A stretch of DNA of 64,000 bases from Escherichia coli (GCF_022846255.1 NZ_AP025682.1), one strand, 5' to 3'; positions 56,512 to 64,000 are shown, counted from the stretch's first letter. Program-made: numbers and translations. The notes: a model not told the origin generated them from the letters alone.

Positions 56512-57150
56512 ATGCCCGGGCGCTTTGAACTAAAACCAACCCTGGAGAAAGTCTGGCACGCGCCGGACAATTTTCGCTTCATGGACCCGCTGCCGCCGAT
56601 GCATCGTCGGGGGATCATTATTGCCGCCATTGTATTGGTGGTCGGATTTCTGCTTCCATCTGATGATACGCCCAACGCGCCGGTGGTGACGCGTGAAGCG
56701 CAGTTAGATATTCAGTCGCAATCACAACCACCGACAGAAGAACAGCTGCGGGCGCAATTAGTCACGCCACAAAATGATCCTGATCAGGTGGCTCCGGTCG
56801 CTCCAGAACCAATACAGGAAGGCCAACCAGAAGAGCAGCCGCAAACCACCCATACGCAACCATTCCAGCCAGATAGCGGAATTGATAATCAATGGCGCTC
56901 CTATCGTGTCGAACCCGGTAAAACGATGGCGCAGCTGTTCCGCGACCACGGACTGCCCGCTACCGATGTCTATGCCATGGCGCAGGTAGAAGGCGCGGAT
57001 AAGCCACTGAGTAATTTGCAAAACGGGCAGATGGTGAAAATCCGCCAGAACGCCAGCGGCGTGGTGACGGGCTTAACCATTGATACGGGGAATAATCAAC
57101 AGGTCCTGTTTACCCGCCAGCCGGATGGCAGTTTTATTCGCGCGCGGTAG
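56512..57150 (+). CDS. ytfB: Cell-division/peptidoglycan-associated protein YtfB (OapA-like, Pro/Gln-rich linker)
   Basis: 212 aa from ATG at 56512 with AGGAGGA RBS. Confidence 0.9.
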
Positions 57151-57781
57151 ATGAAGGGTCAACCAAAAGCCAGCTAAGGATCGTCTCTTTGATGACCTTA
57201 CGTCTGGCTTCCAGTGCCTGCGGTGAAACCATACTGATGTGATAAACCAGACCAAGCGTATGCTGGTTGATCAAATAATATCCCCCAAGCGCAGCAATAT
57301 TAATATTCACCTGCAATGGGTCGATATCTGGCTTAAAAATATTGTTTTTCTTCCCTTCATCCAATAAGGATTCCATTAACTGCAAGTGCGCATGGTTAAT
57401 TTCTAAAAGACGCTGTGACTTTGCATAATGCACACCCTTACTTTGATTTTCACTATGCACAATTTTTAAAAACCAGGGATTAGAAATATAATAATCCCAT
57501 GTAAAATCGATTATTTTCTCAATGGCTTTCTGTGGCGGAAGATCTGAGAAATCAAGGGCCTTTTCTTTTTGTCGAATATCGTTCCAGGTATATTCCAGTA
57601 CTTCGATAAATAAATTTTCTTTATTACCAAAGTGGTGATAAACCGTCTGTTTACTGCACCCCGCGGCCTTGACGATATTATCGACTCTGGCCCCTTCGTA
57701 ACCATATTCGGCAAATTCATTAACCGCGCATAACAGCAGCTTTTCTTTCAGGCTCTGTACGTTGCTGGTATCAAGATACAT
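57134..57781 (-). CDS. TetR-family transcriptional regulator (accessory)
   Basis: 215 aa from ATG at 57781 (ORF extends to 57853); Tet[45 protein letters not shown]; ~40% GC. Confidence 0.8.
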
Positions 57782-57903
57782 AACGCTTCCCCACGACCTC
57801 TTCGTGGTGACTATCATAACCTGATTTGATTTCAGCTTCAGAAAAAAGGGCAAAAACTTGTACTTTCATCAGGTTATCAAATGTCCTGTGATCGCCATCG
57901 CAT

Positions 57904-57925
57904 ATCAACCAACTAGATGGTTGAT
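57904..57925. promoter_or_regulatory. Perfect palindrome, candidate operator of the TetR-controlled divergon
   Basis: ATCAACCA-actaga-TGGTTGAT, 8-bp perfect arms, ~70 bp upstream of the SDR gene ATG. Confidence 0.45.
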
Positions 57926-57993
57926 CTTTTTATCCTCCAGTCGCAAGCTAATCATCACTAAGGAAACAAAATTCAAAAAAAGAGAGCTATTGT

Positions 57994-58785
57994 ATGAAAT
58001 CCACTCGTCCTGTTGCCGTGATTACCGGAGCCGCACGTGGTATTGGAAAGGGCTGTGCGCTGGAGCTTGCGCGTGGCGGATTTAATCTGCTGATTAATGA
58101 TCGTCCGGATGCGGATAGCGTAGAAAAATTACATGCCACACAACAAGAATGTCTGGCGGAAGGCGTGGAAGTGATTTGCTTCCCTGCTGATGTGGGCGAT
58201 CTCTCCCTGCATGAAGAGATGCTCGACGCAGCGCAAAACCAGTGGGGACGTCTGGACTGCCTGCTCAACAACGCAGGCATTTCAGTGAAAAAACGCGGTG
58301 ACCTTCTCGACCTCGAACCAGACAGCTTCGACCAAAATATTGCCATTAACACCCGCGCACCGTTCTTCCTTGCTCAGGCATTCAGTAAGCGCTTACTGGC
58401 ACAGCCGAAACCGGAAGCAGAACTGCCGCACCGCTCGATTATTTTCGTCAGTTCCATCAACGCCATCATGCTGGCGATGAATCGCGGCGAATATACCATT
58501 GCCAAAACTGCCGTCTCTGCCGCTGCTCGTCTGTTTGCTGCTCGCCTTTGTAATGAACAAATTGGCGTATATGAAGTGCGTCCTGGTCTCATCAAAACCG
58601 ATATGACTATTCCGGCAACGGCCTATTACGACGAACTGATTGCCAAAGGTCTGGTGCCGTGGGGACGTTGGGGTTATCCGGCTGATATTGCTTCCACTGT
58701 CCGCGCGATGGCGGAAGGTAAACTGATTTACACCTGTGGTCAGGCGGTCGCCATCGACGGCGGCTTAAGTATGCCGCGCTTCTGA
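57994..58785 (+). CDS. Short-chain dehydrogenase/reductase (SDR) family oxidoreductase
   Basis: 263-aa ORF; TGAARGIG cofactor motif and YxxxK catalytic motif (YTIAK). Confidence 0.85.
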   Translation: MKSTRPVAVITGAARGIGKGCALELARGGFNLLINDRPDADSVEKLHATQQECLAEGVEVICFPADVGDLSLHEEMLDAAQNQWGRLDCLLNNAGISVKKRGDLLDLEPDSFDQNIAINTRAPFFLAQAFSKRLLAQPKPEAELPHRSIIFVSSINAIMLAMNRGEYTIAKTAVSAAARLFAARLCNEQIGVYEVRPGLIKTDMTIPATAYYDELIAKGLVPWGRWGYPADIASTVRAMAEGKLIYTCGQAVAIDGGLSMPRF

Positions 58786-58794
58786 GGCTGAATC

Positions 58795-59637
58795 ATGAGA
58801 GATCTGTTACAACGCCCGGATTTATTCAGTATCAATACCGCGACACTGGGCTATAAAACGCCGCTGCCCGCCATTATTGATGCCTGCGCCGCACGCGGTA
58901 TTGGCGCCATTGCCCCCTGGCGCAGGGAGTTGCAGGGTGAAGATCTCCAGCAAATCGCCCGCCAGCTTGCTGCCAGTAACATAAACGTTTCCGGTTTGTG
59001 CCGTAGCACCTACTACACCGCACCGACGCTGGCGGAGCGCAAACTGGTGATTGACGATAACCGCCGGGCGCTGGACGACGCCGCTGTACTGAACGCCGCC
59101 TGTTATATGCAGGTGGTTGGCGGTCTGCCAATGGGAACAAAAGATCTGTACGAAGCACGGGAACAAGTGAAACAAGGGATTCGCCAGTTGCTGCCACATT
59201 CGAAAGAGGTCGGCGTGCCAATTGCACTGGAGCCACTGCACCCGATGACTGCTGCCGATCGTTCTTGTCTGTGCACGTTACGTCAGGCGCTGGACTGGTG
59301 TGATGAACTCGATCCCGATGGCGAATTTGGCCTCGGCGTGGCGGTAGATGTCTACCATGTCTGGTGGGACCCGGATCTCGCCAGTCAGATCCTGCGTGCC
59401 GGAAAACGCATCCTCGCGTTTCATGTTTCCGACTGGTTAGTGCCGACCACCGATCTGGTCAATGACCGTGGAATGCCGGGAGATGGTGTCATCAATATTC
59501 CGTCAATTCGTCGGCTGGTTGAAAACGCCGGATTTAATGGCGCTATTGAACTGGAAATATTCTCACCGTACTGGTGGCAGAAAGATATTAACAGCACGCT
59601 GGATATTAGCGTCGATCGCATCGCACATTATTGTTAA
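58795..59637 (+). CDS. Xylose-isomerase-like TIM-barrel protein (sugar-phosphate isomerase/epimerase family)
   Basis: 280-aa ORF, 9-nt spacing from upstream gene; family assignment from overall sequence character, moderate certainty. Confidence 0.65.
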   Translation: MRDLLQRPDLFSINTATLGYKTPLPAIIDACAARGIGAIAPWRRELQGEDLQQIARQLAASNINVSGLCRSTYYTAPTLAERKLVIDDNRRALDDAAVLNAACYMQVVGGLPMGTKDLYEAREQVKQGIRQLLPHSKEVGVPIALEPLHPMTAADRSCLCTLRQALDWCDELDPDGEFGLGVAVDVYHVWWDPDLASQILRAGKRILAFHVSDWLVPTTDLVNDRGMPGDGVINIPSIRRLVENAGFNGAIELEIFSPYWWQKDINSTLDISVDRIAHYC

Positions 59638-59646
59638 GGAATAATC

Positions 59647-60423
59647 ATGAGTGACCAACCCGTTCTGTTCAGCAGAGCGGCGGCTTCTTGCCGCCTGACA
59701 TTGAACCGTGAAGATAAATGTCATGCTATTAATGAAGAAATGATCGAATCTCTCGACCATTATTTAAATGAAATTGAAAATGACACGGCATTACGCTTAG
59801 TCGAATTAACGGCAACCGGCGATAAATTCTTTTGTGCGGGCGGCGATATTAAATCGTGGTCGGCCTATTCGCCATTAGATATGGGCAGAAAATGGATTAA
59901 ACGCGGTAATGACGTTTTTAATCGCCTGCGCAACTTACCCCAATTAACCGTTGCGAATCTCAACGGTCATACCATCGGTGGCGGTATTGAACTTGCCTTG
60001 TGCTGCGATATTCGTATCGCTCGCCCCGGCGCGAAATTCTCTAACCCGGAAGTGATGCTCGGCATGGTGCCAGGCTGGATGGGCATTGAGCGAGTGCTTA
60101 ATCAGGTTGGTCCTGTGGTCGGTCGCCAGATGCTGATGCTGGGTAAACGCCTGACGGCGCAGGAAGCTCAGACAGCGAATTTAATTGATGAAGTGGTAGA
60201 AAAAGAACAGGTGGAAAGCTGGATGGCGAACCAGTTAGCGCAGCTGGAAAAATGTGGTCCGGTGGCACTGGCACATATTAAGCAACTGATTCTGGCGCTG
60301 GAAAATAAACACGCCGATTACTCCCACCAGTTACTGGCTGGATTAATGTCCGCCACTCAGGATTGCCAACAGGCGACGCACGCATTTGCCGAAAAAGCCG
60401 GCGTGAGCTTCCACAATCAATAA
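59647..60423 (+). CDS. Enoyl-CoA hydratase/isomerase (crotonase) family protein
   Basis: 258-aa ORF with crotonase motifs FFCAGGDI and GHTIGGGIELAL. Confidence 0.8.
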   Translation: MSDQPVLFSRAAASCRLTLNREDKCHAINEEMIESLDHYLNEIENDTALRLVELTATGDKFFCAGGDIKSWSAYSPLDMGRKWIKRGNDVFNRLRNLPQLTVANLNGHTIGGGIELALCCDIRIARPGAKFSNPEVMLGMVPGWMGIERVLNQVGPVVGRQMLMLGKRLTAQEAQTANLIDEVVEKEQVESWMANQLAQLEKCGPVALAHIKQLILALENKHADYSHQLLAGLMSATQDCQQATHAFAEKAGVSFHNQ

Positions 60424-60432
60424 GGAAATTGT

Positions 60433-61974
60433 ATGCGTAAGTTATCAACCGCCGAGACACTGGCGGCGCAAATTCAGGACGGCGCAACCATTGCCATTAG
60501 CGGCAACGGCGGCGGTATGGTGGAAGCTGACCATATTCTGGCCGCCATTGAAGCGCGCTTTCTGCAAACCGGACACCCGCGCGATCTGACATTAATCCAC
60601 TCGCTGGGTATTGGCGATCGCGACAGCAAAGGCACTAACCGTTTTGCTCACGCCGAAATGCTCAAACGCATTATTGCCGGACATTTTACCTGGTCGCCCA
60701 AGATGCAGGAACTGGTGAAAAGCAATGCTATTGAAGCCTACTGTTTCCCTGGTGGCGTAATTCAGGCACTGCTGCGGGAGATCGGTGCCGGACGTCCGGG
60801 GCTTTTTACCCACGTTGGGCTGGGATCGTTTGTTGATCCACGCAATGGTGGCGGTAAGTCGAATGAATGCACTACCGACGACCTGGTAGAACTGATTGAA
60901 ATCGACGGTGAGACCAAACTTCGTTATCGCCCTTTCAAAGTGGACTACGCGATTTTGCGCGGCACCTATGCCGATCCGCGTGGCAACGTCAGCCTCGAAG
61001 AAGAGGCGATTGATATGGATAGCTATTCGATGGCGCTGGCAGCACACAACAGCGGCGGCAAAGTGTTCGTACAGGTCCGCGATGTGCTGGAAGCAGGTAC
61101 CATTGAACCACGTCGGGTCAAACTACCAGGAATTCTGGTCGATGGCATCGTTGAGCACCGCGAACAACCGCAAACCTATCTTGGTGGTTACGACCTGACG
61201 ATCAGCGGTCAACATCGCCGTCTAAGTTCTAACGACGCTATTGAACTGGTTAGTCATCCGGTGCGTCGCCTGATTGCCCGTCGGGCAGCGCGGGAACTGG
61301 TGGCAGGCGCTTCAACCAACTTTGGCTTTGGTATTCCCGGCGGTATTCCTGGGGTTGCACTGCGCGAAGGCGTGCCTTATCAAAGTTTGTGGCTGAGTGT
61401 AGAACAGGGTGTACATAACGGCATGATGCTGGATGATGCTCTGTTCGGCTGCGCCCGTAACGCCGATGCCATTATTCCATCACTCGATCAATTCGAATTC
61501 TACAGTGGCGGCGGTATCGATATCACCTTCCTCGGCATGGGAGAGATGGATCGGTACGGTAACGTCAACGTATCCCATCTCAATGGCAATCTCATTGGCC
61601 CCGGCGGCTTCCTCGAAATTGCGCAAAACGCCCGTAAAGTGGTGTTCTGCGGTACGTTTGACGCCAAAGGCAGCAAGATTGATGTAACGCCTGATGGCCT
61701 GCATATCGCCCAGTCAGGTCAAATCCCCAAACTGGTTACCCAGGTGGAAAAAATTACTTTTAGCGCCGCATACGCACAGCAAAGCAGTCAGGAAGTGCTG
61801 TATATCACCGAACGTGCGGTATTCCAGTTAACGGCAGAAGGCGTTGAATTAATTGAGATCGCCCCTGGCGTAGAGATTGACCGCGACATTCTGCCGTATA
61901 TGGCCTTCCGTCCGATTATCAGGCACCCACGCCTGATGGAAAGTAGCCTGTTTACGCCAATGGAGGATGCATGA
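60433..61974 (+). CDS. Fused alpha/beta family-I CoA-transferase (acyl-CoA:acetate/3-ketoacid type, YdiF/Pct-like)
   Basis: 513-aa ORF; N-terminal DGATIAISGNGGG motif typical of family-I CoA-transferases. Confidence 0.7.
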   Translation: MRKLSTAETLAAQIQDGATIAISGNGGGMVEADHILAAIEARFLQTGHPRDLTLIHSLGIGDRDSKGTNRFAHAEMLKRIIAGHFTWSPKMQELVKSNAIEAYCFPGGVIQALLREIGAGRPGLFTHVGLGSFVDPRNGGGKSNECTTDDLVELIEIDGETKLRYRPFKVDYAILRGTYADPRGNVSLEEEAIDMDSYSMALAAHNSGGKVFVQVRDVLEAGTIEPRRVKLPGILVDGIVEHREQPQTYLGGYDLTISGQHRRLSSNDAIELVSHPVRRLIARRAARELVAGASTNFGFGIPGGIPGVALREGVPYQSLWLSVEQGVHNGMMLDDALFGCARNADAIIPSLDQFEFYSGGGIDITFLGMGEMDRYGNVNVSHLNGNLIGPGGFLEIAQNARKVVFCGTFDAKGSKIDVTPDGLHIAQSGQIPKLVTQVEKITFSAAYAQQSSQEVLYITERAVFQLTAEGVELIEIAPGVEIDRDILPYMAFRPIIRHPRLMESSLFTPMEDA

Positions 61975-64000
61975 GTCAGCTTGATGAGGCCATCCTTGAT
62001 GCACTGACACACGTTACTTTCCCAAAGGGTTTTGCACAGGCAGAACCCGCATGGGTTGTCACGGTAGACGGTGTTGATTACCCACTCTGGAAAACAGATG
62101 CCCTGGTAGTCGGCAGTGGTGCAGCCGGGCTACGTGCAGCTGTGGAACTTAAACGCCGCCAGCAAAATGTGTTAATCGCCACCGCCGGGTTATATATGGG
62201 GACATCGGCATGTTCTGGCTCTGATAAACAAACACTGTTTACCGCCGCTACCGCGGGCAACGGCGACAACTTCGCCAAACTGGCAGAGGCACTGGCGAGC
62301 GGTGGGGCGATGGATCACGACACCGCTTATGTTGAAGCGGTAGGTTCTCTGCACACTCTTGGCGGGTTGCAATATCTTGGTCTGGAATTACCGGAAGATC
62401 GCTATGGCGCGATTCTTCGTTATCAAACCGACCATGACGAAGCCGGGCGTGCAACCTCGTGTGGGCCGCGTACCTCAAGGTTAATGGTGAAAGTGCTGCT
62501 GGAAGAAGTACAGCGTCTTGCTATCCCAATGTTGGCCAGTGCAACAGTGATTAAACTGCTGCATCAGCGTGACGAAAACGGTGAAGACCGTGTGGCGGGG
62601 GCAATCCTCGCGACCGGTCATCGCGCCCATAACCCATGGGGGCTGGCAATTGTGACTGCGCCCAATGTGGTACTGGCAACAGGCGGGCCTGGCGAGCTTT
62701 ATCGCGACAGTGTGTATCCACACAAATGTTTCGGCTCGCTGGGGCTGGCGCTGGAGGAAGGTCTGACGTTAACGAATCTGACTGAAAGCCAGTTTGGTAT
62801 AGGCACACCGCGCAGCACGTTTCCGTGGAATTTGTCCGGCACCTATGTACAGGTGATCCCATATATCTATTCCGTGGATGCCGGGGGCAACGAGTATAAC
62901 TTCCTCGCGGATTACTATCGCACCACCCAGGAGCTGGCTTCAAACATTTTCCGTAAAGGCTATCAGTGGCCGTTCCACGCCACGCGGGTAATGGATTTTG
63001 GCTCCAGCTTGTTAGATATGGCAGTAGCGCAAGAGCAGCAACATGGTCGTCAGGTATTTATGGATTTCAATCGTAATCCAGAACCTGTGCCGGGTGACCT
63101 ACCGTTCTCATTAGATCGACTGGACGACGACGTTCGCGCGTATCTGGAAAATAACGACGCTCTGGCACCATCGCCCATCGAACGCCTGCAACAAATGAAT
63201 CCTCTGTCTATCTCGCTGTATAAGATGCACGGTTACGATCTCATCACGCAGCCATTGCAGTTTGCCATGAATAATCAGCACATGAATGGCGGCATTGAAG
63301 TCGATATCTGGGGACAAACATCTCTGCCCGGTTGTTTTGCGGTGGGGGAAGTTGCTGGCACACACGGCGTCACCCGACCTGGCGGCGCGGCGTTGAATGC
63401 CGGGCAGGTTTTTGCTGTTCGTCTGGCGCGCTTTATTGGTTGCACGCAAAAGCGGAATATTGATGGAGATATTGCACAGCTGGCAGCTCCGGCACTGGCT
63501 TCTATAAGAGAGATCATTACTCAGGCGCACGATAACGGGTCCGGGATGCCGTTGTCGGTTGTGAGAGAAAAAATTCAGGCACGAATGTCTGACTATGCGG
63601 GATTTATTTGCCATGCCGATAAAGTCCGACGTGCCACTCGTGATGCCCTGCTATTGAACGAATTTGTCCAACGACATGGATTGGCAATCAAACATGTGGG
63701 TGAAGTTGCCGAGCTGTTTATGTGGCGGCATATGGCGCTGACTTCTGCCGCGGTATTAACACAATTAACGCATTATATTGATGCTGGTGGTGGTAGCCGT
63801 GGGGCGCGTATGGTTATTGATCCACAAGGCAAATGCCTACCACAAACTCGTCGCGGCGCAAAAGAAGAATGGCGTTTTCGCTCTGAACTCGCTGAAGACA
63901 AAAATCACAAATTAACAATTCAATATTCGCAAGGTTCTTTTATTACCGAAGTAAAGTCTTTACGTATGCAACCGTGTATTAACGGTATTTACTTTGAAAA
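61971..64000 (+). CDS. FAD-dependent oxidoreductase of the fumarate reductase / succinate dehydrogenase / L-aspartate oxidase flavoprotein superfamily; 3'-truncated by window edge
   Basis: Open frame from ATG 61971 (ATGA overlap with upstream stop) with no stop to 64000 (>=676 codons, hand-translated; not in supplied track); GxGxxG (ALVVGSGAAGL) and GEVAGTHGVTRPGGAALNAG motif. Confidence 0.75.
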   Translation, partial: MSQLDEAILDALTHVTFPKGFAQAEPAWVVTVDGVDYPLWKTDALVVGSGAAGLRAAVELKRRQQNVLIATAGLYMGTSACSGSDKQTLFTAATAGNGDNFAKLAEALASGGAMDHDTAYVEAVGSLHTLGGLQYLGLELPEDRYGAILRYQTDHDEAGRATSCGPRTSRLMVKVLLEEVQRLAIPMLASATVIKLLHQRDENGEDRVAGAILATGHRAHNPWGLAIVTAPNVVLATGGPGELYRDSVYPHKCFGSLGLALEEGLTLTNLTESQFGIGTPRSTFPWNLSGTYVQVIPYIYSVDAGGNEYNFLADYYRTTQELASNIFRKGYQWPFHATRVMDFGSSLLDMAVAQEQQHGRQVFMDFNRNPEPVPGDLPFSLDRLDDDVRAYLENNDALAPSPIERLQQMNPLSISLYKMHGYDLITQPLQFAMNNQHMNGGIEVDIWGQTSLPGCFAVGEVAGTHGVTRPGGAALNAGQVFAVRLARFIGCTQKRNIDGDIAQLAAPALASIREIITQAHDNGSGMPLSVVREKIQARMSDYAGFICHADKVRRATRDALLLNEFVQRHGLAIKHVGEVAELFMWRHMALTSAAVLTQLTHYIDAGGGSRGARMVIDPQGKCLPQTRRGAKEEWRFRSELAEDKNHKLTIQYSQGSFITEVKSLRMQPCINGIYFE

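What the first reader, a model, noticed from the sequence alone, without database searches (positions are those of the whole stretch)
61971..64000. Large FrdA/NadB-superfamily flavoprotein with a ~40-aa N-terminal extension, coupled to the CoA-transferase
The frame from 61971 stays open for at least 676 codons, longer than NadB (~540 aa) or FrdA (~600 aa). It has a dinucleotide-binding GxGxxG motif after a ~40-residue leader and the GEVA.THG..R.GG..L.. motif typical of this superfamily. Such proteins include soluble reductases of unsaturated acids, so together with the CoA-transferase and crotonase it may reduce or desaturate an acyl-CoA. The C-terminus and any partner subunits lie outside the window.
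Basis: partly seen in the sequence, partly recalled or inferred. Interest (0 to 1): 0.58.

Follow-up and report, generated by a model that had tools for sequence, protein, structure and literature searches.

The report
Orphan FrdA-like flavoprotein, accessory operon
The open frame is a real, nearly complete E. coli gene for a 690-residue FAD enzyme from an unstudied branch of the fumarate-reductase/aspartate-oxidase superfamily, and it sits in an accessory nutrient-utilisation operon that K-12 has lost and whose substrate is still unknown.

Summary
Bases 61971-64000 encode residues 1-676 of a 690-aa protein, 99% identical to E. coli 536 WP_000080375.1; only 14 codons lie beyond the window. Pfam, profile searches and an AlphaFold model (pLDDT 91) all place it in the SdhA/FrdA/NadB fold.

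It is not NadB, FrdA or any characterised clade:
- It scores at most 124 bits against models whose cut-offs are 450-1100.
- It has no covalent-FAD histidine.
- The substrate histidine FrdA H232 is an invariant glycine.
- The cap domain is enlarged and cannot be aligned with NadB or FrdA.
- The carboxylate-binding pair FrdA H355/R390 is invariant (H437/R469).

There are no partner subunits. The next gene is an organic-acid transporter, and no FrdB-like protein occurs in 86 related loci.

The operon is TetR | SDR, TIM-barrel, crotonase, CoA-transferase, flavoprotein, transporter. It is present in 58% of complete E. coli genomes, and in Salmonella and Klebsiella at the same site.

Across phyla the flavoprotein's constant partner is one SDR orthologue, often with KDG-kinase/aldolase-like genes and uronate-type transporters. 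The CoA genes occur in few lineages. The best reading is a flavoenzyme acting next to the free carboxylate of a sugar-derived acid. No experimental work on it was found.

The parts
57134..57781 (-). Divergent TetR/AcrR-family regulator (215 aa by the RefSeq start; TetR_N + TetR_C_29). K-12 'ytfA' is its C-terminal remnant.
57904..57925 (.). 22-bp palindrome ATCAACCAACT/AGATGGTTGAT in the regulator-operon intergenic region. It is a candidate TetR operator (inference only; it was also flagged as terminator-like).
57994..58785 (+). SDR oxidoreductase (263 aa) with Ser/Tyr-x3-Lys present, NCBIfam NF009386/PRK12745, named '3-ketoacyl-ACP reductase'. It is the orthologue group that travels with the flavoprotein across phyla.
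58795..59637 (+). Xylose-isomerase-like TIM-barrel protein (AP_endonuc_2, 280 aa). It scores 288 bits to the uncharacterised PDB entries 3JU2 (SMc04130) and 3QC0.
59647..60423 (+). Crotonase-family enoyl-CoA hydratase (258 aa). Both catalytic Glu motifs are present (GGGIELAL, NPEVMLG).
60433..61974 (+). Fused alpha/beta family-I CoA-transferase (513 aa, FadX/YdiF-like; VEQG at the SENG position). Its stop overlaps the flavoprotein start.
61971..64000 (+). Flavoprotein gene, residues 1-676 of 690, cut by the window end.
61971..62096 (+). N-terminal lead (aa 1-42), modelled as a helix plus beta-hairpin with no signal-peptide character. About 24 aa of it are specific to the enterobacterial and closest subgroup.
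62112..62129 (+). GSGAAG dinucleotide-binding motif (aa 48-53).
62796..63215 (+). Enlarged, remodelled cap region (aa 276-415). It begins with the invariant G276 that replaces FrdA H232 / NadB H244, contains family-invariant S289 G290 Y292 K329 W333 P334 S345 S346 D349, and cannot be aligned with the NadB or FrdA cap.
63279..63377 (+). Invariant H437 (QHMNGG) and R469 (THGVTRPGG), which match FrdA H355/R390 and NadB H351/R386, the carboxylate-binding pair.
63807..64000 (+). Start of the family-specific C-terminal subdomain (aa 613-690). In E. coli this part exists as two diverged alleles that go with MFS or TRAP transporter genes downstream.

Best explanation
The gene encodes a cytoplasmic, stand-alone flavoenzyme with non-covalently bound FAD. 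It belongs to an uncharacterised, phylogenetically wide subfamily of the SdhA/FrdA/NadB superfamily. It keeps the FAD domain, the helical domain and the His/Arg pair that anchors a substrate carboxylate (shown). It has lost the second carboxylate-binding histidine and the recognisable proton-shuttle cap residues (shown). I infer that it transfers hydride between flavin N5 and the carbon beta to a single free carboxylate. The reaction would be an alpha,beta C-C or C-O(H) dehydrogenation or the reverse ene-reduction, on a mono-carboxylic, sugar-derived (hexuronate- or aldonate-like) acid rather than on fumarate, aspartate or a fatty acyl-CoA. It works together with a dedicated SDR, the PRK12745 orthologue. 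In E. coli the pair is embedded in a TetR-controlled six-gene accessory operon: organic-acid importer, SDR, TIM-barrel isomerase/dehydratase-like protein, flavoprotein, and a lineage-specific crotonase + CoA-transferase module. That module probably handles a beta-hydroxy or enoyl acid intermediate or product as its CoA ester, by analogy with CaiB/CaiD. In other phyla the same SDR + flavoprotein pair feeds KDG-kinase-like and KDPG-aldolase-like genes. The exact substrate, the direction of the reaction and the electron partner are not established.
For: Fold and family:
- Pfam FAD_binding_2, E 8.5e-25.
- AF2 model with pLDDT 91.3 and pTM 0.93.
- Foldseek top PDB hits are SdhA/FrdA/NadB/AprA, E 1e-24 to 1e-32, at 14-18% identity.
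- hhalign to E. coli FrdA gives probability 99.3.

Separate clade:
- Best NCBIfam scores are 124 bits (TfrA) and 107 bits (NadB), against cut-offs of 450-1100.
- There are 410 clusters at 50% identity with E<=1e-30.
- All AFDB neighbours are unnamed 'FAD-binding protein'.

Active site:
- H437 and R469 are invariant in 44/44 sequences.
- G276 replaces H232 in 44/44, and G/S77 replaces the covalent His44.

No Fe-S partner: 0 FrdB hits among 1,159 ORFs of 86 loci.

Conserved partner: an SDR sits in the same operon in 25/80 loci and in the locus in 31/80. Ten of ten tested SDRs from diverse lineages pass the same equivalog model, NF009386 (269-387 bits, cut-off 250).

Sugar-acid theme:
- A KdgK-like kinase is the immediate downstream gene in 15/80 loci.
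- Eda-like aldolase is in the operon in 9 loci, and a KHG/KDPG-aldolase/kinase fusion (720 bits, above cut-off) sits in L070.
- Gfo/Idh/MocA dehydrogenases related to levoglucosan and inositol dehydrogenases recur.
- An IlvD/Edd-type dehydratase lies in L073.

Carboxylate import:
- The MFS transporter belongs to the D-galactonate/ACS family (314 bits).
- The alternative E. coli allele and Succinatimonas carry TRAP systems. Their binding proteins are closest (243-183 bits) to 4OVR/4X8R/4N8Y/4N15/4N91/4MHF. Of these, 4N8Y, 4X8R, 4N91 and 4MHF are described as glucuronate/galacturonate binders (PMC7660916, PMC11668362).

CoA genes: the crotonase + CoA-transferase pair is in the operon only in the five Escherichia/Salmonella loci of the 80, and in Klebsiella.
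Against: - No enzyme of this family has been assayed, so every functional statement rests on homology and gene neighbourhood.
- In E. coli the flavoprotein gene is translationally coupled to the CoA-transferase gene. CoAT, flavoprotein, crotonase and SDR together would make a complete beta-oxidation-like turn.
- Two other lineages (L014, L073) place it beside acyl-CoA dehydrogenases, ETF, MaoC hydratases and a CoA-transferase.
- Transporters differ between lineages. Brenneria has a PcaK-like aromatic-acid transporter and alpha-proteobacteria have a glucose-type ABC system. The substrate may therefore not be the same everywhere.
- TRAP binding-protein similarity of about 40% does not fix the ligand.
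- The 80 loci are the top-scoring subset of more than 600 matches, and genes were called crudely.
- Many hosts are strict anaerobes, where an alpha,beta-desaturation lacks an obvious electron acceptor.
Confidence: 0.45

Rival explanations
1. The flavoprotein is an acyl-CoA alpha,beta-desaturase, or an enoyl-CoA reductase acting as an electron sink as CaiA does. An imported acid is activated by the CoA-transferase, desaturated by the flavoprotein, hydrated by the crotonase and oxidised by the SDR, in a self-contained beta-oxidation-like turn.
For: The gene order is crotonase, CoA-transferase, flavoprotein, with a 4-bp ATGA overlap. The crotonase and CoA-transferase keep their catalytic residues. 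The SDR is FabG/acetoacetyl-CoA-reductase-like. L014 and L073 combine the flavoprotein with ACAD, ETF, MaoC and CoA-transferase genes. The TetR shows weak similarity to acyl-CoA-sensing FadR (47 bits).
Against: The SDR + flavoprotein pair occurs without any CoA enzyme in most lineages, including close enterobacterial relatives: Brenneria has TetR-SDR-TIM-FAD, and Pseudescherichia, Phytobacter and Mangrovibacter have a Gfo/Idh/MocA gene instead. The free-carboxylate His/Arg pair is invariant. Where ACADs are present they already provide the enoyl-CoA redox step. I know of no FAD_binding_2 enzyme that uses CoA thioesters (own knowledge). The operon has no thiolase or lyase.
Confidence: 0.22
2. 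The flavin has a non-redox role. The protein is a hydratase/dehydratase, an analogue of UxuA/UxaA or of gluconate dehydratase, that converts the aldonate made by the SDR into a 2-keto-3-deoxy acid for the KDG kinase. The TIM-barrel, SDR and flavoprotein would then be a non-homologous copy of the isomerase/reductase/dehydratase logic of the Ashwell pathway.
For: No electron partner is present in any neighbourhood. The family occurs widely in strict anaerobes. The KdgK-like gene lies directly downstream in 15/80 loci. The minimal clusters are transporter + SDR + TIM + flavoprotein (L005, L009). The hydride/proton cap residues of FrdA are lost while carboxylate binding is kept. From my own knowledge, fumarate reductase active sites can hydrate fumarate, and FAD-containing hydratases exist (oleate hydratase, 2-haloacrylate hydratase).
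Against: Nearly all FAD_binding_2 enzymes are redox enzymes. Clusters with OYE ene-reductases in place of the TIM-barrel (L006, L063, L070, Phycisphaerae) do not fit a simple Ashwell analogue. E. coli already has UxaC/UxuAB/UxaAB (own knowledge).
Confidence: 0.13
3. The enzyme is a KstD-like desaturase or ene-reductase acting next to a ketone on an alicyclic or hydroaromatic carboxylate (quinate/shikimate- or cyclitol-carboxylate-like). The SDR makes or removes the ketone, and the TIM-barrel acts as a dehydratase in the manner of IolE or dehydroshikimate dehydratase.
For: The enzyme set is SDR + flavoprotein + OYE (the classic cyclohexenone reductase family) + Gfo/Idh/MocA (inositol-dehydrogenase family) + AP_endonuc_2 TIM-barrel. 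Brenneria has a PcaK-like aromatic-acid transporter (369 bits). The L014 ACAD resembles cyclohexane-carbonyl-CoA dehydrogenase (303 bits). A family-invariant Tyr292 sits in the cap.
Against: No KstD or dehydroshikimate-dehydratase similarity was detected. The KDG kinase/aldolase and uronate-type TRAP links point to open-chain sugar acids. The TIM-barrel scores only 27 bits to IolI.
Confidence: 0.1
4. It is an ordinary paralogue of L-aspartate oxidase or of a fumarate reductase/succinate dehydrogenase flavoprotein subunit.
For: Some database entries call relatives 'succinate dehydrogenase flavoprotein subunit'. NadB and TfrA are the best-scoring named families.
Against: Scores are 4- to 8-fold below every family cut-off. 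Identity to E. coli FrdA and NadB is about 23-24%. H232/H244 is replaced by Gly, the cap is not alignable, there is no covalent His, there is no Fe-S or membrane subunit, and the gene sits in a catabolic operon.
Confidence: 0.02

Closest known systems
L-aspartate oxidase NadB (E. coli; PDB 1CHU/1KNP)
   Same: Stand-alone soluble flavoprotein with non-covalent FAD. It has the same FAD-binding and helical domains, and H351/R386 match H437/R469. It is the best PDB sequence match (107 bits with the family profile).
   Different: About 24% identity. H244 is replaced by G276. The cap domain is about 50 aa larger and cannot be aligned. There are extra N-terminal (about 35 aa) and C-terminal (about 78 aa) elements. 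The score against NadB models is 51-107 bits with cut-offs of 452-723. The gene lies in a catabolic operon, not a NAD biosynthesis context.
Fumarate reductase / succinate dehydrogenase flavoprotein (FrdA/SdhA)
   Same: Best structural neighbours (Foldseek E about 1e-31, TM 0.64-0.78). It shares the four-domain architecture up to residue about 620, an ESRG-like GGGSRG motif, and the H355/R390 equivalents.
   Different: There is no covalent-FAD histidine (H44 is replaced by G77). H232 is replaced by Gly. T244/E245/R248/R287 have no credible counterparts. No FrdB/C/D-like genes occur in any of 86 loci.
Thiol:fumarate reductase TfrA (NF004900)
   Same: Highest-scoring named model (124 bits), over the C-terminal half.
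   Different: The cut-off is 718 bits, and no TfrB-like partner is present. The similarity is at superfamily level only.
Soluble FAD_binding_2 enzymes acting on mono-carboxylates or ketones (urocanate reductase UrdA, flavocytochrome c3, 3-ketosteroid dehydrogenase KstD, tricarballylate dehydrogenase TcuA)
   Same: These are precedents, from my own knowledge, for the same fold doing alpha,beta reduction or desaturation on substrates other than fumarate. They are often single-subunit enzymes in catabolic or electron-sink operons.
   Different: Only the N-terminal FAD domain aligns with flavocytochrome c3 (40-58 bits). No KstD or TcuA hit passed the thresholds. There is no FMN-bind or haem domain. 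This protein has the SdhA/NadB-type helical domain.
Carnitine cai system (CaiB CoA-transferase + CaiD crotonase + CaiA flavoprotein reductase)
   Same: The operon logic is the same in the E. coli-type locus: an organic-acid importer, a CoA-transferase, a crotonase-family (de)hydratase and a flavoprotein.
   Different: The flavoprotein here has the FrdA fold, not the acyl-CoA-dehydrogenase fold. The CoA-transferase is family I, not family III. The SDR and TIM-barrel proteins have no cai counterpart. This resemblance was recalled, not tested.
Hexuronate catabolism to KDG (UxaC-UxuB-UxuA, KduI-KduD, then KdgK-Eda)
   Same: The neighbourhood themes match: uronate-type transporters, an isomerase-like TIM-barrel, a KduD-related SDR (117-169 bits to KduD models), and KdgK-like and Eda-like genes.
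   Different: No component is orthologous to the canonical enzymes, since all scores are below cut-offs. The canonical routes contain no flavoprotein. E. coli carries the canonical pathway as well (own knowledge).

Membership tests
SdhA/FrdA/NadB/AprA flavoprotein superfamily (Pfam FAD_binding_2 fold) | N-terminal GxGxxG Rossmann FAD domain interrupted by a cap domain, closed by the GE..G.HG..R.G motif | tested here: met
   Pfam PF00890 covers residues 43-475, E 8.5e-25. GSGAAG is at 48-53 and GEVAGTHGVTRPGG at 459-472.
SdhA/FrdA/NadB/AprA flavoprotein superfamily (Pfam FAD_binding_2 fold) | Overall three-dimensional fold, including the helical domain | tested here: met
   AF2 model with pLDDT 91.3. 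Foldseek PDB hits to SdhA/FrdA at E 6e-32 to 1e-27, and to NadB and AprA at 1e-24. hhalign to FrdA gives probability 99.3 over 498 columns.
Fumarate reductase / succinate dehydrogenase flavoprotein subunit | Histidine for covalent 8-alpha-N3-histidyl FAD (FrdA H44) | tested here: not met
   H44 aligns with G77, which is Gly or Ser in 44/44 family members.
Fumarate reductase / succinate dehydrogenase flavoprotein subunit | Dicarboxylate-binding and catalytic set H232, T244, E245, R287, H355, R390 | tested here: not met
   H355 and R390 are conserved as H437 and R469. H232 is replaced by an invariant G276. T244, E245, R248 and R287 fall in a cap segment with no credible alignment.
Fumarate reductase / succinate dehydrogenase flavoprotein subunit | Adjacent Fe-S subunit (FrdB/SdhB) and membrane anchor genes | tested here: not met
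   The operon holds SDR, TIM, ECH, CoAT and transporter genes only. BLASTP with E. coli FrdB found 0 hits among 1,159 ORFs of 86 loci.
Fumarate reductase / succinate dehydrogenase flavoprotein subunit | Score above curated family cut-offs | tested here: not met
   TIGR01812 scores 83 bits (cut-off 567) and PRK09231 FrdA 44 bits (cut-off 854).
L-aspartate oxidase NadB | Score above curated NadB model cut-offs | tested here: not met
   TIGR00551 scores 99 bits (cut-off 453) and NF005867 107 bits (cut-off 639).
L-aspartate oxidase NadB | Substrate residues H244, R290, H351, R386 | tested here: not met
   H351 and R386 are kept as H437 and R469. H244 is replaced by G276. The profile alignment stops at NadB residue 243 and resumes at 332, so R290 has no counterpart.
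L-aspartate oxidase NadB | Aspartate oxidation activity / role in NAD synthesis | not testable with these tools
   The genomic context is a TetR-regulated catabolic operon. E. coli has a separate nadB gene.
Soluble fumarate/urocanate-type reductases (flavocytochrome c3, UrdA) | Electron-input domain (haem or FMN_bind) fused or adjacent | tested here: not met
   FAD_binding_2 is the only Pfam domain. Only residues 13-220 of the profile align to Fcc3.
3-ketosteroid dehydrogenase KstD / tricarballylate dehydrogenase TcuA | Detectable sequence membership | tested here: not met
   Neither appears among the 25 NCBIfam families listed (30 matched at E<=1e-3) or among the PDB profile hits at E<=1e-5.
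New family: '690-aa FrdA-like flavoprotein paired with PRK12745 SDR' | Family-invariant motifs: SDKQT (84-88), TD (153-154), GP.TS (165-169), Q.G (274-276), SG.Y (289-292), KGYQWP (329-334), QH.NGG (436-441), R.PGG (469-472), RG (610-611) | tested here: met
   All are present in the window protein and invariant in 44 members at 33-92% identity.
New family: '690-aa FrdA-like flavoprotein paired with PRK12745 SDR' | Adjacent NF009386 (PRK12745) SDR | tested here: met
   The window SDR scores 421 bits (cut-off 250). Ten of ten tested partner SDRs from other lineages pass the cut-off. The SDR is absent from the alpha-proteobacterial cluster type.

The most novel reading that the evidence does not exclude
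The flavoprotein and its dedicated PRK12745 SDR form a previously unrecognised, cross-phylum two-enzyme module. The module carries out a flavin-dependent step in a new route from hexuronate-like sugar acids to 2-keto-3-deoxy acids, which then enter the KdgK/Eda steps. That step would be either an alpha,beta redox reaction on a free sugar-acid carboxylate or a non-redox dehydration. E. coli, Salmonella and Klebsiella would run a CoA-thioester variant of this route. If so, a common accessory operon of E. coli, including Nissle 1917 and UPEC 536, gains a nutrient-niche function, and sugar-acid chemistry is added to the FrdA/NadB fold.
Probability: 0.25. Interest if true: 0.7.

Novelty: new variant of a known kind. 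Interest (0 to 1): 0.5.

Why it matters
The operon is carried by more than half of sequenced E. coli, including the probiotic Nissle 1917 and uropathogenic 536, and by Salmonella and Klebsiella. K-12 lacks it, which is probably why it has never been studied. Its flavoprotein defines a distinct branch of a textbook enzyme superfamily, with about 400 clusters at 50% identity from Proteobacteria to Planctomycetota, Firmicutes and an Asgard archaeon, and no member has been characterised.

Three things would follow from identifying the substrate. It would assign a gut or urinary nutrient niche. It would correct a widespread misnaming, since relatives are called '3-ketoacyl-ACP reductase' or 'succinate dehydrogenase flavoprotein subunit'. 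It might also reveal new flavin chemistry on sugar acids.

The lead is directly testable. The strains are genetically tractable, the TetR regulator and the TRAP binding protein can both be screened for ligands, and the protein is soluble and single-subunit.

Tried and rejected
1. **Bona fide NadB/FrdA/SdhA/TfrA.** Rejected on model scores, catalytic residues and the lack of partner genes.

2. **The Klebsiella michiganensis acyl-CoA deoxyribonate cluster (PMC6365646).** It has a different gene set (CoA-synthetase, hydroxyacyl-CoA dehydrogenase, thiolase, glycerate kinase), so it is not this operon.

3. **Literature.** Nine full-text searches found nothing on this operon or family. They covered gene names ytfA/yjfZ, product-name combinations, RefSeq accessions, PDB codes of the TIM-barrel homologues, and pathway keywords. 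The Vetting et al. 2015 TRAP ligand paper is not held. Ligand assignments for 4OVR, 4OVQ, 4P1L and 4XFE therefore rest on my memory only. Those for 4N8Y, 4X8R, 4N91 and 4MHF are cited from two other papers, which also use 4N15 as a template for a glucuronate binder.

4. **Names of distant relatives.** These gave only 'FAD-binding protein' or 'succinate dehydrogenase/fumarate reductase flavoprotein subunit'.

5. **The cap domain.** Alignment by profile HMM and by hhalign gave no credible equivalences, so no catalytic acid or base can be named.

6. **MtnA and UvrA neighbours in Phycisphaerae.** Judged to be lineage synteny, not pathway members.

7. **gltD next to the Pseudescherichia-type loci.** Judged to be the housekeeping gene.

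8. **Sigma-70 promoter scan of the intergenic region.** No site was found.

Full report
**1. The observation**

The + strand frame starting at 61971 is open for 676 codons to the end of the window. It is a real gene. The region 57000-64000 is 99.1% identical to E. coli 536, and the ORF itself is 99.7% identical to Nissle 1917. The translation matches the annotated 690-aa 'FAD-dependent oxidoreductase' WP_000080375.1 at 674 of 676 positions. Only 14 codons therefore lie outside the window.

The start codon is well supported. GGAGGA lies 6 nt upstream, and the ATG overlaps the TGA of the preceding CoA-transferase gene (ATGA). The N-terminus is conserved in orthologues.

**2. Fold and family**

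- Pfam finds one domain, FAD_binding_2, over residues 43-475 (E 8.5e-25).
- An AlphaFold2 model built on a 44-sequence alignment is confident (pLDDT 91.3, pTM 0.93).
- Its best solved-structure neighbours are SdhA and FrdA (E 6e-32 to 1e-27, TM 0.64-0.8), followed by NadB and adenylylsulfate/PAPS reductase alpha subunits. All are at 14-18% identity.
- hhalign against E. coli FrdA gives probability 99.3 over 498 columns at 23% identity.

**3. It is not a member of any characterised clade**

Every curated NCBIfam model scores far below its cut-off: TfrA 124 against 718, NadB 99-107 against 452-639, SdhA/FrdA 44-83 against 567-854. Single-sequence search of the PDB gives at most 37 bits.

Residue mapping comes from the HMMER and hhalign alignments and from conservation in 44 family members:

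| E. coli FrdA residue | NadB residue | This protein | Conservation in family |
|---|---|---|---|
| H44 (covalent FAD) | none | G77 | Gly or Ser in 44/44 |
| H232 | H244 | G276 | invariant |
| H355 | H351 | H437 | invariant |
| R390 | R386 | R469 | invariant |

The profile alignment to NadB stops at residue 243 and resumes at 332. The cap domain, which carries the FrdA proton shuttle T244/E245/R248/R287, has been rebuilt. It is about 139 aa instead of about 88 aa, and it has its own invariant residues: S289, G290, Y292, K329, G330, W333, P334, S345, S346 and D349.

The extra length of the protein has three sources:
- the enlarged cap;
- an N-terminal lead of 47 residues, modelled as a helix plus beta-hairpin. 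The family norm is about 23 residues, and 44-48 occur only in the enterobacterial and closest subgroup;
- a beta-rich C-terminal subdomain of about 78 aa beyond the region that aligns with FrdA.

**4. Size and spread of the family**

An exhaustive HMMER search of 1.84 billion representatives finds 410 clusters at 50% identity with E<=1e-30. AlphaFold-database neighbours (TM 0.85-0.97) come from Salmonella, Succinatimonas, Enterocloster bolteae, Victivallis, Treponema, Coriobacterium, Halanaerobium and the Asgard archaeon Promethearchaeum. None has a functional name. Source names are only 'FAD-binding protein' or 'succinate dehydrogenase/fumarate reductase flavoprotein subunit'.

**5. The operon in E. 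coli**

In 536 the gene is fifth in a unit that lies between ytfB and rplI. Gaps inside the unit are 9-92 bp or overlaps. The order is:
- divergent TetR regulator;
- SDR (NF009386/PRK12745, 421 bits);
- xylose-isomerase-like TIM-barrel;
- crotonase;
- fused family-I CoA-transferase;
- flavoprotein;
- MFS transporter of the D-galactonate/anion:cation symporter family (314 bits).

No further redox subunit follows. Salmonella and Klebsiella carry the same operon at the same chromosomal position, so it is ancestral there.

K-12 has lost it. The pseudogene ytfA is the C-terminal 133 residues of this TetR regulator (98% identity), and yjfZ occupies the site.

The flavoprotein gene is present in 3136 of 5426 complete E. 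coli genomes. Two versions exist. One has the MFS gene downstream (1692 genomes). The other has a TRAP transporter, DctQMP (1481 genomes). In the TRAP version, similarity to the window stops at nucleotide 1841 of the ORF, so the last 78 or so residues form a diverged allele.

The crotonase keeps both catalytic glutamates. The CoA-transferase has VEQG at the SENG position. The SDR has its Ser/Tyr/Lys triad. A 22-bp palindrome at 57904-57925 in the divergent intergenic region is a plausible TetR operator. This is inference only.

**6. Comparative neighbourhoods**

A scan of one genome per species returned more than 600 matches, of which the best 80 loci were kept. I called ORFs and clustered them. 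Cluster representatives were named with NCBIfam, Pfam and PDB searches.

Recurrent arrangements:
- **(a) Escherichia, Salmonella, Klebsiella:** as described above.
- **(b) Pseudescherichia, Phytobacter, Mangrovibacter, a Lentisphaeria MAG, a beta-proteobacterium and Opitutia:** SDR + Gfo/Idh/MocA + TIM-barrel + flavoprotein, with an MFS transporter in some.
- **(c) Brenneria and Succinatimonas:** TetR + SDR + TIM-barrel + flavoprotein + transporter.
- **(d) Firmicutes and others:** OYE-type Fe-S flavoprotein + SDR + flavoprotein + TRAP.
- **(e) Phycisphaerae:** OYE fused to a GltD-like domain + SDR + Eda-like aldolase + BNR_4 protein + flavoprotein + KdgK-like kinase. In L070 the order is OYE, flavoprotein, SDR, then a KHG/KDPG-aldolase/kinase fusion that scores above its model cut-off.
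- **(f) Rhodobacteraceae and Rhizobiales:** glucose-type ABC transporter + two GMC oxidoreductases + Dabb + LacI + a levoglucosan-dehydrogenase-like Gfo/Idh/MocA + flavoprotein + KdgK-like kinase.
- **(g) A beta-proteobacterium (L014) and a Desulfobacterales MAG (L073):** acyl-CoA dehydrogenase(s), with ETF in L014. L073 also has MaoC hydratases, a CoA-transferase, a Zn-ADH like L-idonate dehydrogenase and an IlvD/Edd-type dehydratase.

Counts over the 80 loci:
- SDR: in the locus in 31, in the operon in 25.
- KdgK-like kinase: in the locus in 18, and the immediate downstream gene in 15.
- TIM-barrel: in the locus in 16.
- Eda-like aldolase: in the locus in 11, in the operon in 9.
- Crotonase + CoA-transferase: in the operon only in the five enterobacterial loci.

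Ten SDRs adjacent to the flavoprotein, taken from diverse lineages, all pass the same equivalog model, NF009386 (269-387 bits, cut-off 250). The SDR and the flavoprotein are thus a conserved module, and the name '3-ketoacyl-ACP reductase' is probably a misnomer. No FrdB-like Fe-S protein occurs among the 1,159 neighbouring ORFs.

**7. Substrate clues**

All transporters in the proteobacterial and Firmicute clusters are organic-acid importers: ACS-family MFS, PcaK-like AAHS MFS in Brenneria, and TRAP. The TRAP binding proteins of the E. coli TRAP allele and of Succinatimonas are closest (243-183 bits) to 4OVR, 4X8R, 4N8Y, 4N15, 4N91 and 4MHF. Of these, 4N8Y, 4X8R, 4N91 and 4MHF are described as D-glucuronate/D-galacturonate binders, and 4N15 served as the template for a glucuronate binder (PMC7660916, PMC11668362). 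Together with the KDG-kinase and KDPG-aldolase links, this points to a hexuronate- or aldonate-like acid. At about 40% identity the ligand is not fixed, and the substrate may differ between cluster types.

**8. How it most likely works**

Shown:
- the fold;
- FAD-binding motifs with no covalent-FAD histidine;
- a retained single carboxylate-anchoring His/Arg pair;
- a lost second carboxylate site and a lost recognisable cap catalytic set;
- no Fe-S partner;
- a conserved SDR partner;
- an operon with an acid importer.

Inferred: the enzyme binds a mono-carboxylic acid with its carboxylate on H437/R469. It moves a hydride between flavin N5 and the beta-carbon, with a new acid/base from the rebuilt cap. 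Y292 and K329 are candidates. The SDR interconverts a neighbouring hydroxyl and ketone.

In E. coli the crotonase + CoA-transferase pair probably performs a CaiB/CaiD-like hydration or dehydration of a beta-hydroxy or enoyl acid intermediate or product as its CoA ester. I give this reading 0.45.

It is weakened by the many CoA-free clusters and by the invariant free-carboxylate site.

A non-redox dehydratase role, as a UxuA/UxaA analogue, would neatly explain three things: the minimal transporter + TIM + SDR + flavoprotein clusters, the adjacent KDG kinase, and the absence of an electron partner in anaerobes (0.13). An alicyclic-acid (quinate/shikimate-like) reading is weaker (0.10). An ordinary NadB or FrdA paralogue is excluded (0.02).

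**9. Novelty and verdict**

The sequence is already annotated generically. I found no experimental or comparative description of this operon or family in nine full-text searches. Only main texts of open-access papers and preprints were searched.

It is a new variant of a known kind: a distinct, widely distributed FrdA/NadB-superfamily branch with a remodelled active site and a fixed SDR partner, in an accessory operon of the best-studied bacterium. The finding is real and worth following experimentally, but its function is unresolved. Interest 0.5.

**Limits**

Gene calling in the related loci was a simple longest-ORF procedure. Cluster names rest on one representative each. The 80 loci are a top-scoring subset.

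Noticed in passing
window 57134-57781 (-); K-12 locus L087:3195-3596: The K-12 pseudogene ytfA is the C-terminal 133 aa (98% identical) of this operon's TetR regulator. K-12 has lost the six structural genes and carries yjfZ at the site.
   Followed up: yes
window 63807-64000 and downstream (L001:16137-17414; L007:11103-13946): E. coli has two versions of the operon. One has an MFS transporter downstream (1692 genomes) and the other a TRAP DctQMP transporter (1481 genomes). The junction lies inside the flavoprotein gene at about codon 613, so the last 78 or so residues exist as two diverged alleles (690 aa against 693 aa).
   Followed up: partly
window 60433-64000 (proteins P0004 of 1078 aa and P0030 of 1043 aa): A few E. 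coli records carry a single ORF that fuses the first 388 or so residues of the CoA-transferase to the flavoprotein from residue 3 or so. This is probably an in-frame deletion, and its functional status is unknown.
   Followed up: no
window 57994-58785: The SDR named '3-ketoacyl-ACP reductase' (NF009386/PRK12745) is the orthologue that sits beside the flavoprotein in all ten loci tested, which span Succinatimonas, Brenneria, a beta-proteobacterium, Firmicutes, Lentisphaeria, Phycisphaerae, Calditrichota and Aminicenantes. The name is probably misleading.
   Followed up: yes
window 58795-59637: The TIM-barrel protein scores 288 bits to two structural-genomics entries with no assigned function (3JU2 Sinorhizobium SMc04130, 3QC0) and 211 bits to 7VPF. 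The Gfo/Idh/MocA partner found in related clusters scores 619 bits to 3OQB, also unassigned. Solved structures therefore already exist for two pathway components.
   Followed up: partly
window 57904-57925: A 22-bp palindrome, ATCAACCAACT/AGATGGTTGAT, followed by a T-run lies between the divergent TetR and SDR genes. It is a candidate operator, and it also matches a terminator-like pattern. No sigma-70 consensus promoter was found in 57750-58050.
   Followed up: partly
L001:17557-19320 (downstream of the window in strain 536): In strain 536 a frameshifted HipA-family toxin gene and an HTH gene lie between the operon's transporter and rplI. Salmonella and Klebsiella have an EamA transporter gene there instead.
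   Followed up: no
L023-L058 (Rhodobacteraceae and Rhizobiales loci): These loci share a conserved cluster: a glucose-type ABC transporter (binding protein 395 bits to 4R2B), two GMC oxidoreductases, a Dabb protein, LacI, a levoglucosan-dehydrogenase-like Gfo/Idh/MocA gene, the flavoprotein and a KdgK-like kinase. This looks like an undescribed sugar oxidation route.
   Followed up: partly
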